A program made the translations under genes and the position numbers. A model generated the notes under the pieces. The model was not told where the DNA came from. It did not search any database and was given only the letters and a program-made list of their open reading frames with translations. From Candidatus Uhrbacteria bacterium (GTDB lineage: Bacteria; Patescibacteriota; Patescibacteriia; JACQRZ01), in NCBI GenBank assembly GCA_016188385.1, contig JACPHV010000002.1:24116-88115 (forward strand): 64,000 nt of DNA, given 5' to 3'. Shown in pieces: positions 6,498 to 7,334 of this stretch (its first letter is position 1; every line of letters starts with the position of its first letter).

Positions 6498-7334
6498 ATG
6501 CAGTTTATCCCGCTTCCTACGAAGTTTCTGTATCAAGACGGATCCAAAGCAAATGAGACCGTATTGACGATCGAGCCGTTGTACCCCGGTTATGGATTGA
6601 CGATCGGCACGGCATTGCGGAGGGTACTGCTATCCTCGCTTGCCGGAGGGGCTGTTGTCGCGGTTAAGATCAAAGGCGTGCTCCATGAATTTTCCACTAT
6701 CCCGTATGTAAAGGAAGATGTTGTCGATATTCTGCTTAATATCAAGAAGCTCCGATTTAATGTCCATACGGATGAAGAAGTGCGGGTTTCGTTGCATGTA
6801 AAAGGAGAAAAAGTGGTAACCGGCGCTGACATTATTGGCAACAGCGATGTCGAAGTCTCCAGTCAGAATGCCCATATATGTACATTGACCAATAAAAACG
6901 CGCAAATAGAAATTGAATTTTTTGTCAGAAAAGGGAGAGGATATTTGCCGACAGAAATGCGTGAAAAAGAAAAATTGGAGCTTGGCACCATCGCGATTGA
7001 CGCATTATTCACCCCCGTAGTATCAGTCGGCCTTAAAATCGAAAATGTTCGGGTCGGCCAAATGACGAATTATAATAAAGTCATCCTTACGATCGAAACC
7101 GATGGCAGCATCTCCGCGCAAGACGCGATTGCGGAAGCAAGCAAGATTCTTGTTGACCACTATCGAGTGATCTCCGGCGGCGTGGAAGGTACTGACGGTT
7201 TAGGTGATGAAAGTCCGTATGTCAGCGGCGATGAAATTGCTTCGCTTGTGGACGCGACAGAAGGAGAGGAGTCTCAAGATGAAGAAGAGCAAGATCAGCC
7301 GAAAAAACGGGGACGGCCCAAAAAAGGGGCATAA
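6498..7334 (+). CDS. rpoA: RNA polymerase alpha subunit: N-terminal domain only, with an acidic tail and a C-terminal AT-hook-like KKRGRPKKG.
   Basis: Alpha-NTD dimerisation domain is recognisable (…LTIEPLYPGYGLTIGTALRRVLLSSLAGGAV…). 278 aa. There is no alpha-CTD; the protein ends …EGEESQDEEEQDQPKKRGRPKKGA. Confidence 0.85.
   Translation: MQFIPLPTKFLYQDGSKANETVLTIEPLYPGYGLTIGTALRRVLLSSLAGGAVVAVKIKGVLHEFSTIPYVKEDVVDILLNIKKLRFNVHTDEEVRVSLHVKGEKVVTGADIIGNSDVEVSSQNAHICTLTNKNAQIEIEFFVRKGRGYLPTEMREKEKLELGTIAIDALFTPVVSVGLKIENVRVGQMTNYNKVILTIETDGSISAQDAIAEASKILVDHYRVISGGVEGTDGLGDESPYVSGDEIASLVDATEGEESQDEEEQDQPKKRGRPKKGA

What the first reader, a model, noticed from the sequence alone, without database searches (positions are those of the whole stretch)
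6498..7334. RNA polymerase alpha subunit lacks the alpha-CTD and ends in an acidic tail plus an AT-hook (KKRGRPKKG)
The alpha-NTD is intact. After residue ~230 the protein continues …GDESPYVSGDEIASLVDATEGEESQDEEEQDQPKKRGRPKKGA and stops.

In established biology the alpha-CTD contacts AT-rich UP elements and activators through the DNA minor groove. An RGRP AT-hook is a minimal minor-groove AT-binding peptide. It could therefore be a functional replacement for the alpha-CTD.
Basis: partly seen in the sequence, partly recalled or inferred. Interest (0 to 1): 0.6.

Follow-up and report, generated by a model that had tools for sequence, protein, structure and literature searches.

The report
RNA polymerase alpha with AT-hook tail
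In this candidate-phyla-radiation bacterium the RNA polymerase alpha subunit has lost its usual DNA- and activator-binding C-terminal domain and instead ends in a floppy acidic tail tipped with a strictly conserved AT-hook peptide, which probably grips AT-rich DNA upstream of promoters, although no experiment has tested this.

Summary
ORF 6498-7334 (+) is a genuine rpoA in the usual rpsM-rpsK-rpsD-rpoA-rplQ context. It has an intact alpha-NTD and no alpha-CTD. It ends in a 42-residue acidic linker with no basic residues, followed by KKRGRPKK-GA.

It is not an assembly error. 110 of the 120 closest homologues share the design. The octapeptide is invariant in 21 species despite free synonymous codon change, while the linker sequence drifts.

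No alpha-CTD was found in the 64-kb window or within 6 kb of rpoA in 70 CTD-less relatives.

The wider picture is new. Among 81 related Patescibacteria rpoA genes the C-terminus is an AT-hook (24), a lysine-rich tail (25), acidic only or absent (22), or a canonical alpha-CTD (10).

The closest analogue is Myxococcus CarD. It combines an RNAP-binding domain, an acidic stretch and RGRP hooks, and its hook domain can be replaced by histone H1.

The most likely function is a tethered minor-groove contact with upstream AT tracts, resembling the UP-element contact but without an activator-docking surface. Promoter statistics give only weak support (p about 0.05).

One published sentence mentions alpha-CTD loss in Parcubacteria. 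I found nothing on the AT-hook. I rate it a new variant of a known kind, with moderately high interest.

The parts
6498..7334 (+). rpoA coding sequence (278 aa including the AT-hook tail; stop TAA at 7332-7334)
   Evidence: The product is identical to NCBI MBI2483602.1, Candidatus Uhrbacteria bacterium.
6498..7175 (+). alpha-NTD (residues 1-226): dimerisation and beta/beta' assembly domain
   Evidence: PF01193 at residues 26-221 and PF01000 at 56-172. AF2 pLDDT is about 90 for residues 9-225. 58 PDB alpha chains align (best stretches span residues 7-240), the best being B. subtilis 6wvj at E 2e-56. The ALRR motif (R41, R42) is invariant.
7176..7301 (+). acidic disordered linker (residues 227-268; 15 D/E, 0 K/R)
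   Evidence: pLDDT is 34-47 (10-residue block means; <50 for residues 230-244 and 252-267). The sequence is not conserved (about 3 bits entropy) but composition and length are. In 110 homologues the linker is 34-62 aa with mean net charge -13.7.
7302..7325 (+). AT-hook KKRGRPKK (residues 269-276); G277-A278 follow, then the stop codon
   Evidence: Invariant in 21 species with synonymous codon turnover. Nearly invariant alignment columns. PF02178 is the only Pfam hit for the tail, at 11.4 bits, below the gathering score of 17.4.
7353..7718 (+). rplQ (L17), the next gene, 18 nt after the rpoA stop; context only
   Evidence: rplQ follows rpoA directly in all 80 related loci.
5006..6470 (+). rpsM, rpsK and rpsD upstream of rpoA; context only (canonical alpha-operon order)
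   Evidence: from the translations.

Best explanation
This is the genuine, functional alpha subunit of a Candidatus Uhrbacteria (Patescibacteria/CPR) RNA polymerase. In it the folded alpha-CTD has been replaced by an intrinsically disordered tail.

The tail has two parts. The first is a polyanionic linker of about 42 residues. The second is one canonical AT-hook (KKRGRPKK) at the extreme C-terminus. Because alpha is a dimer, each polymerase carries two tethered hooks.

Proposed mechanism (inferred). Once sigma has engaged the -35 and -10 elements, the hooks insert their RGR core into the narrow minor groove of A/T tracts upstream of -35. This adds binding energy in the way the alpha-CTD contact with an UP element does. 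The acidic linker gives reach. It also probably masks the hook electrostatically or keeps it off bulk DNA, so it binds only when held close to promoter DNA.

The tail cannot provide the activator-docking function of the alpha-CTD.

What is shown: the anatomy, the absence of a CTD locally, predicted disorder, strong purifying selection on the peptide, and clade-wide distribution.

What is inferred: DNA binding, AT preference, an upstream-promoter target, and masking by the linker.
For: - Domain content and gene context.
- Conservation: 110 of 120 homologues share the design. KKRGRPKK is invariant in 21 species while its codons vary freely, so selection acts on the peptide and not on the DNA or the rplQ ribosome-binding site. 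Entropy contrasts sharply between hook and linker.
- The hook always lies 2-6 residues from the C-terminus, after a 34-62 aa linker with net charge about -14.
- The tail is predicted to be disordered.
- The motif is specific to rpoA. Of 24 [KR]GRP[KR] matches in about 267,000 aa of predicted proteins from 81 loci, 21 are rpoA C-termini.
- No alpha-CTD was found by profile search in the window or within 6 kb of any CTD-less rpoA. rplQ follows rpoA directly.
- Sigma-70-type promoters (TTGACA-N17-TATAAT) are present in these genomes: 111 sites score >=10 against 16 in shuffles.
- An A/T tract of >=6 bp within 22 nt upstream of -35 is more frequent in AT-hook lineages (21 of 37 promoter clusters) and alpha-CTD lineages (7/12) than in Lys-tail plus tail-less lineages (16/48). 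The odds ratio is 2.6 and p is 0.047.
- Precedents: CarD has an RNAP-binding domain, an acidic region of about 50 aa and RGRP hooks. It binds AT tracts at -63 and -77, and its hook domain can be swapped for histone H1 (PMC8156234; PMC4374960). WhiB7 is bound to sigma and contacts promoter DNA through an AT-hook (PMC8786299).
Against: - There is no experimental DNA-binding evidence.
- AT content shows no positional bump upstream of -35.
- The A/T-tract enrichment is marginal. It is uncorrected for the several parameter settings I tried, and it is not significant against the tail-less class alone.
- Relatives have Lys-rich, acidic-only or no tails. The hook is therefore not indispensable, and AT-specific reading is not a general requirement.
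- A single AT-hook binds DNA weakly on its own (established knowledge of HMGA).
- An adjacent polyanionic segment would oppose approach to DNA.
- The rest of the genome could not be searched for a stand-alone alpha-CTD.
Confidence: 0.55

Rival explanations
1. The functional part is the polyanionic disordered tail. It would act as a nucleic-acid mimic like the C-terminal region of the Gram-positive delta subunit or sigma-70 region 1.1. Such a tail sweeps nonspecific DNA or RNA off the polymerase and sharpens promoter selectivity and recycling. On this view the basic tip (AT-hook or Lys run) is mainly an intramolecular electrostatic latch and not a reader of promoter DNA.
For: Acidic composition and length are conserved although sequence is not. 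14 of 81 relatives keep an acidic tail with no basic end. The AT-hook and Lys-rich tips interchange between neighbouring clades. Promoter AT-tract evidence is weak. The delta subunit is a folded domain plus an acidic disordered region with net charge -47 (PMC7749165).
Against: A mere counter-charge would not need an invariant R-G-R-P core over deep divergence; Lys or Arg in any order would do. The net charge of about -14 is far less than that of delta. The alpha-NTD C-terminus lies on the upstream face of the polymerase, far from the main channel (established RNAP structure). This rival is not exclusive of the best explanation.
Confidence: 0.25
2. The basic tip is a general nucleoid, DNA or RNA tether, or a partner-protein docking peptide. 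It would keep the polymerase on the chromosome of a tiny cell, or bind RNA or an acidic partner, without a specific role at promoters.
For: Lys-rich H1-like tails replace the hook in many lineages. There is no strong positional AT signal at promoters. One relative carries the same KKRGRPRK peptide on ribosomal protein S9, which hints at a generic nucleic-acid-binding tag.
Against: The motif is almost exclusive to rpoA in the regions examined. The tether length and attachment point match the reach of the alpha-CTD. The AT-hook and alpha-CTD classes share the higher A/T-tract frequency upstream of -35.
Confidence: 0.12
3. The tail is a neutral remnant of genome reduction: a decaying 3' end left after loss of the alpha-CTD, with no function.
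For: Alpha-CTD loss accompanies genome reduction in Hodgkinia and Tremblaya and has been noted for Parcubacteria (PMC8321222). Some relatives have no tail at all.
Against: The octapeptide is invariant across 21 species with saturated synonymous change, and its position at the C-terminus is conserved. Neutral sequence would not be preserved in this way.
Confidence: 0.04
4. The gene is a normal rpoA truncated by a frameshift or assembly error, or a canonical alpha-CTD is encoded just downstream.
For: Split rpoA genes of that kind do exist in other metagenome assemblies. There the alpha-CTD ORF sits between the NTD ORF and rplQ (L081 and L085).
Against: Only 18 nt separate the stop codon from rplQ. 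No alpha-CTD similarity appears in any frame of the window. More than 100 independent assemblies give the same architecture.
Confidence: 0.01

Closest known systems
Canonical bacterial alpha-CTD and UP-element recognition (E. coli RpoA residues about 249-329; Pfam PF03118)
   Same: Both are attached to the alpha-NTD by a flexible linker, with two copies per polymerase. The proposed target is the same: the minor groove of A/T-rich DNA upstream of -35.
   Different: Here there is no helix-hairpin-helix fold and no PF03118 match. An 8-residue peptide replaces an 80-residue domain, so there is no surface for class I activators or other alpha-CTD partners. The linker is about three times longer and strongly acidic.
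Myxococcus xanthus CarD C-terminal HMGA-like domain (PMC8156234, PMC4374960)
   Same: A folded module bound to RNA polymerase is followed by a highly acidic disordered stretch of about 50 residues and then RGRP AT-hooks. CarD binds AT tracts upstream of the promoter (-63 and -77). Its hook domain can be replaced by histone H1 basic tails. This parallels the AT-hook versus Lys-rich alternation seen among CPR alpha subunits.
   Different: CarD is an accessory factor that binds the beta subunit through a PF02559 domain and carries four hooks. Here the hook is part of a core subunit, with one hook per chain and no homology to CarD.
WhiB7 of mycobacteria (PMC8786299, PMC10245118)
   Same: An AT-hook is held on the holoenzyme and contacts AT-rich promoter DNA near or upstream of -35 to stimulate transcription.
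   Different: WhiB7 is an Fe-S regulator bound to sigma-A region 4, is inducible, and is restricted to actinobacteria. Here the hook is constitutive and sits on alpha.
Alpha subunits lacking the CTD: Hodgkinia and Tremblaya endosymbionts, Euglena chloroplasts, a one-line mention for Parcubacteria (PMC8321222); and archaeal D / eukaryotic Rpb3-AC40 (own knowledge)
   Same: All have lost or lack the alpha-CTD while keeping the assembly domain.
   Different: None of those is reported to have an AT-hook or a conserved basic-tipped acidic tail.
Delta subunit (RpoE) of Bacillota RNA polymerase (PMC7749165)
   Same: It is a polymerase-bound folded domain followed by a long acidic intrinsically disordered region. 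From my own knowledge, a lysine tract within that region makes intramolecular contacts.
   Different: It is a different subunit with a different binding site, a much higher net charge (-47) and no AT-hook.
Eukaryotic HMGA proteins (PMC4482583)
   Same: They share the RGRP hook consensus flanked by K/R, intrinsic disorder, and co-occurrence with an acidic segment.
   Different: HMGA has three hooks with the acidic tail C-terminal to them, and it is a free architectural protein.

Membership tests
Bacterial RNA polymerase alpha subunit (RpoA, TIGR02027) | N-terminal assembly domain (PF01193 with the PF01000 insert) | tested here: met
   E 1e-19 and 2e-31; PDB alpha chains, E down to 2e-56; AF2 model.
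Bacterial RNA polymerase alpha subunit (RpoA, TIGR02027) | Score above the curated equivalog cut-off | tested here: met
   TIGR02027 scores 248.3 bits against a cut-off of 227.8. The PRK05182 sub-models fall below their cut-offs because the CTD part of the profile is unmatched.
Bacterial RNA polymerase alpha subunit (RpoA, TIGR02027) | Position in the rpsM-rpsK-rpsD-rpoA-rplQ operon | tested here: met
Bacterial RNA polymerase alpha subunit (RpoA, TIGR02027) | C-terminal helix-hairpin-helix domain (PF03118) | tested here: not met
   It is an rpoA orthologue with a non-canonical architecture.
AT-hook motif (Pfam PF02178 / SMART SM00384) | Core R-G-R-P with an invariant GRP | tested here: met
   Residues 271-274 are RGRP. 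These columns are nearly invariant in the 57-sequence alignment.
AT-hook motif (Pfam PF02178 / SMART SM00384) | Basic residues flanking the core on both sides | tested here: met
   KK-RGRP-KK.
AT-hook motif (Pfam PF02178 / SMART SM00384) | Profile score above the Pfam gathering threshold | tested here: not met
   11.4 bits against 17.4. Only profile positions 1-9 of 13 can align because the protein ends. A 13-residue model has little statistical power.
AT-hook motif (Pfam PF02178 / SMART SM00384) | Lies in an intrinsically disordered segment | tested here: met
   pLDDT is 34-53 (10-residue block means) for residues 230-278.
AT-hook motif (Pfam PF02178 / SMART SM00384) | Binds the minor groove of AT-rich DNA | not testable with these tools
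   Needs EMSA, NMR or footprinting.
HMGA-like / CarD-type DNA-binding domain | Acidic segment adjacent to the hooks | tested here: met
   Residues 227-268 have 15 D/E and 0 K/R.
HMGA-like / CarD-type DNA-binding domain | Several (3-4) AT-hook repeats per chain | tested here: not met
   There is a single hook per chain in the window protein and in every hook-bearing homologue examined.
HMGA-like / CarD-type DNA-binding domain | CarD_CdnL_TRCF N-terminal domain (PF02559) | tested here: not met
   No such hit.
Delta subunit (RpoE) of RNA polymerase | Delta N-terminal folded domain followed by a polyanionic C-terminal region | tested here: not met
   Only the acidic composition is shared. The folded part is the alpha-NTD.

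The most novel reading that the evidence does not exclude
A core subunit of bacterial RNA polymerase has acquired a eukaryote-type AT-hook as a built-in reader of upstream A/T tracts. More broadly, Patescibacteria have repeatedly exchanged the alpha-CTD for a family of disordered acidic-linker-plus-basic-tip tethers (AT-hook, H1-like lysine runs) or dropped it altogether, with promoter architecture co-evolving. That would make the CPR a natural experiment on what the alpha-CTD is for. It would also add a new class of promoter recognition that is intrinsic to the polymerase.
Probability: 0.4. Interest if true: 0.75.

Novelty: new variant of a known kind. Interest (0 to 1): 0.62.

Why it matters
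The alpha-CTD is textbook core equipment of bacterial transcription. It reads UP elements and is the docking site for class I activators.

Here it is replaced across a large uncultivated radiation by a minimal disordered peptide motif considered rare in bacteria. This changes expectations about how CPR promoters are recognised and regulated. There can be no alpha-CTD-dependent activation, and upstream DNA is possibly read by hooks.

It also provides a compact natural module that could be grafted onto other polymerases for promoter engineering.

Finally, it gives a clean comparative system for testing the contribution of upstream DNA contacts. The four tail classes (hook, lysine, acidic-only or none, and alpha-CTD) occur in related genomes.

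Tried and rejected
**Search for a stand-alone alpha-CTD**
The only hits were chance ones. One is antisense to a 509-aa ORF at 63747-63980, E 0.056. The other is an HhH-like stretch in a Fic protein at 22898-24046, E 0.18.
- A profile built from 10 CPR alpha-CTDs found nothing beyond the fused CTDs.
- A database search with a CPR alpha-CTD profile returned 62 short proteins containing only PF03118. The six I looked up fell into three kinds:
  - frameshift-split or fragmented rpoA genes, including two with the CTD ORF lying between the NTD ORF and rplQ;
  - a contig-end partial;
  - proteins on a phage contig and a plasmid-like contig.
  None was a trans-encoded CTD of an AT-hook lineage.

**Other tests**
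- The positional AT-content profile upstream of -35 showed no bump.
- Locus GC content does not separate the tail classes.
- The Pfam AT_hook model is too short to be decisive.
- There are no tRNA genes in the window that could point to strong promoters.

**Literature**
- Searches for rpoA or alpha-CTD combined with AT-hook and CPR or Patescibacteria found nothing specific.
- Nelson & Stegen 2015 is cited elsewhere for alpha-CTD loss in Parcubacteria. Its main text does not contain the words RNA polymerase or rpoA.

**Not possible with these tools**
- I could not scan whole genomes of AT-hook lineages.

Full report
**1. What is in the window**

ORF 6498-7334 (+) encodes 278 aa. It sits in the canonical order infA, rpsM, rpsK, rpsD, rpoA, rplQ, rplM, rpsI.

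Pfam finds the two alpha-NTD families, PF01193 at residues 26-221 and PF01000 at 56-172. It finds no PF03118. NCBIfam rpoA equivalogs match only the first 230 or so profile positions of 298-344; TIGR02027 still passes its cut-off, 248 against 227.8 bits. PDB alpha subunits align only up to residue about 227 (one chain, 8syi, to 240), the best being B. subtilis 6wvj at E 2e-56.

After the NTD come 42 residues with 15 D/E and no K/R. Then comes KKRGRPKK (nt 7302-7325), then G-A-stop. rplQ starts 18 nt later.

**2. It is not an artefact, and it is under selection**

The exact protein is NCBI MBI2483602.1 from a Candidatus Uhrbacteria MAG, in the Patescibacteria group and Parcubacteria group. It is annotated only as "subunit alpha".

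The 120 best homologues are nearly all 270-299 aa (one is 240 aa) and none has PF03118. 110 of them end in a variable acidic stretch plus [KR]GRP, almost always KKRGRPKK. Most of the others end in a run such as KPKKKKASKKK.

In a 57-sequence alignment, column entropy is about 3 bits in the linker and 0-0.8 bit (mostly 0.25-0.5) in the hook.

In 20 other species-level genomes plus the window (21 in all), KKRGRPKK is invariant except for one conservative K-to-R change in a flanking residue (RKRGRPKK, L033). Meanwhile all Arg, Gly and Pro codons are used interchangeably. Selection therefore acts on the peptide, not on the DNA just upstream of rplQ.

The hook always lies 2-6 residues from the C-terminus. 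The linker is 34-62 aa, mean 44, with mean net charge -13.7.

AlphaFold2 gives a confident NTD, with pLDDT about 90 for residues 9-225. The tail is low-confidence, with 10-residue block means of 34-53 for residues 230-278.

The motif is not a compositional quirk of these proteomes. Of 24 [KR]GRP[KR] matches in about 267,000 aa predicted from 81 regions, 21 are rpoA C-termini.

**3. No alpha-CTD nearby**

Searches of all six frames found no alpha-CTD in the 64-kb window, nor within 6 kb of any of 70 CTD-less rpoA genes. One search used E. coli and B. subtilis alpha-CTD sequences. The other used a profile built from ten CPR alpha-CTDs.

rplQ follows rpoA directly in every class.

Short proteins containing only an alpha-CTD do exist in the databases. 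The six I examined were frameshift-split or fragmented rpoA genes (in two of them the CTD ORF lies between the NTD ORF and rplQ), a contig-end fragment, and proteins on a phage contig and a plasmid-like contig.

I could not search the whole genome, so a distant stand-alone CTD is not formally excluded.

**4. The wider pattern**

A scan of one genome per GTDB species returned 80 related loci. They come from the Uhr-, Kerfeld-, Magasanik-, Veblen-, Buchanan-, Falkow-, Kuenen-, Doudna-, Portnoy- and Nealsonbacteria lineages, Paceibacterota and Minisyncoccota.

Counting the window as well, the alpha C-termini fall into these classes:

| C-terminal ending | Count |
|---|---|
| Acidic linker + AT-hook | 21 |
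| Degenerate hook (RGRK / RGRS) | 3 |
| Acidic linker + Lys-rich tail | 20 |
| Weaker Lys-rich tail | 5 |
| Acidic only | 14 |
| NTD only (230-237 aa) | 8 |
| Canonical alpha-CTD | 10 |

In the Doudnabacteria-type alpha-CTDs, inspection of the alignment shows that the residues corresponding to E. coli R265, N268, G296, K298 and S299 are kept.

Among the 150 nearest 50%-identity representatives, 83 have an alpha-CTD, about 7 have a hook or RGR motif, and at least 22 have basic tails.

On a neighbour-joining tree of the NTDs, tail types are coherent in shallow clades but interleaved at depth. That tree is too weak to count gains and losses.

The alpha-CTD has thus been lost widely in this radiation. 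The AT-hook is one of several alternative endings and is the dominant one in the clade of the window.

**5. Promoters**

Intergenic regions of these loci contain sigma-70-type promoters (TTGACA-N17-TATAAT) far above shuffled expectation. 111 sites score >=10, against 16 in shuffles.

AT content shows no positional rise upstream of -35.

An A/T tract of >=6 bp within 22 nt upstream of -35 occurs at these frequencies:

| Tail class | Promoters with tract |
|---|---|
| AT-hook | 22/39 |
| alpha-CTD | 7/12 |
| Lys-rich tail | 9/31 |
| Tail-less or acidic only | 7/18 |

After collapsing similar promoters, the hook class has 21/37 against 16/48 for the Lys and tail-less classes pooled. The odds ratio is 2.6 and p is 0.047.

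Within the hook class, the observed count is 22, against 16.7 expected from random windows in the same regions (empirical p 0.028).

This agrees with the hypothesis but is marginal. It is uncorrected for the several settings I explored, and it is not significant against the tail-less class alone. I treat it as suggestive only. GC content does not differ by class.

**6. Mechanism**

The most likely reading is that each alpha chain carries a flexible polyanionic tether of about 42 residues ending in a minor-groove AT-hook. My own estimate of the tether's contour length is about 150 Å, at least equal to the reach of the alpha-CTD.

When sigma positions the enzyme, the two hooks can dock into A/T tracts upstream of -35 and add modest binding energy, like a minimal UP-element contact.

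By analogy with HMGA and HMGB acidic tails and the delta subunit, the acidic linker probably masks the hook and disfavours nonspecific DNA binding.

The tail cannot replace the activator-contact role of the alpha-CTD.

The anatomy, the conservation and the predicted disorder are shown here. DNA binding, AT preference and the promoter target are inferred.

The main rival is that the acidic region itself is the functional element, acting like delta or sigma region 1.1, with the basic tip as a latch. This is supported by the acidic-only tails and by the hook/lysine interchange. It does not explain the invariance of RGRP. The two readings are compatible.

**7. What is known**

- *Myxococcus CarD* is the closest analogue. 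It has an RNAP-binding fold, an acidic disordered stretch of about 50 residues and RGRP hooks. It binds AT tracts at -63 and -77. Its hook domain can be replaced by histone H1, and it keeps diminished activity without the domain (PMC8156234; PMC4374960). This mirrors the hook, lysine and no-tail alternation seen here.
- *WhiB7* is a second precedent for an AT-hook carried on the holoenzyme. [quoted passage not shown]
- *Alpha-CTD loss* is documented for Hodgkinia, Tremblaya and Euglena plastids. One sentence mentions it for Parcubacteria (PMC8321222). The paper cited there does not discuss it in its main text.
- *AT-hook on alpha.* I found no paper describing an AT-hook or a basic-tipped acidic tail on alpha. 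The library covers only open-access papers and bioRxiv, so this is not proof of absence.

**8. Verdict**

This is a real, conserved feature, apparently undescribed in the library I could search. It is a new architectural variant of a core RNA polymerase subunit. It has a plausible, testable and unproven role in binding upstream promoter DNA. It belongs to a broader diversification of the alpha C-terminus in Patescibacteria that I could not find described either.

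Noticed in passing
L001-L080 (rpoA at about 6001 in most loci): Patescibacteria rpoA C-termini fall into at least four classes: AT-hook, Lys-rich H1-like tail, acidic-only or no tail (NTD only, 230-237 aa), and canonical alpha-CTD. The classes are clade-coherent but interleaved on an NTD tree.
   Followed up: yes
L030:7643-8179 (+): Ribosomal protein S9 of one AT-hook-lineage genome carries an N-terminal extension with the same peptide, KPKKRGRPRK. It is 49% identical to the window S9 over the core.
   Followed up: partly
L081:3275-4279 and L085:2782-3692: In lineages that have an alpha-CTD, rpoA is split into an NTD ORF and a separate alpha-CTD ORF lying between the NTD and rplQ. 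This may be a frameshift, a stop in the linker or an assembly error. The two ORFs overlap by 46 nt in L085.
   Followed up: partly
L083/L084:4001-4318 (+): A stand-alone 105-aa protein with an alpha-CTD-like domain (PF03118) lies inside a phage head-morphogenesis module with portal, S78 protease and HK97-type capsid genes.
   Followed up: no
L086:2286-2564 (+): A stand-alone 92-aa alpha-CTD-like ORF lies on a contig next to a Rep3-type replication initiator, which suggests a plasmid.
   Followed up: no
window 20582-21214 and 21242-21604 (+): A RhuM-family gene is split into two adjacent ORFs matching profile positions 3-139 and 150-248. It is probably a disrupted gene or pseudogene.
   Followed up: no
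window 22898-24046 and 26974-27555 (+): Two Fic/DOC-domain genes lie about 3 kb apart. The first has the best sigma-70-like promoter match in the window, TTGACA-N17-TATACT.
   Followed up: no
window 27920-34372, 32-2689, 24658-26472, 34382-38279 and 38996-40600 (+): Very large ORFs (2150, 885, 604, 519, 360, 410 and 534 aa) have no Pfam match. This is typical of CPR 'dark' proteins.
   Followed up: no
P0182, P0229, P0246, P0264 (representatives): Some alpha subunits that keep the alpha-CTD have long additional C-terminal extensions of 100-150 aa, rich in acidic residues and ending in Arg-rich stretches such as RGRRPDRRAARRR.
   Followed up: no
L001, L002, L004, L006-L008 and others (record titles): Many GTDB representative MAGs that are clearly Patescibacteria by rpoA and gene context are titled 'uncultured Gammaproteobacteria bacterium' (binchicken/SRP co-assemblies). 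One is titled 'Bacillota bacterium' (L057). These look like mislabelled records.
   Followed up: no
window 16050-16862 (-): A tyrosine recombinase (Phage_integrase family, XerC/D-like) lies next to the fmt gene.
   Followed up: no
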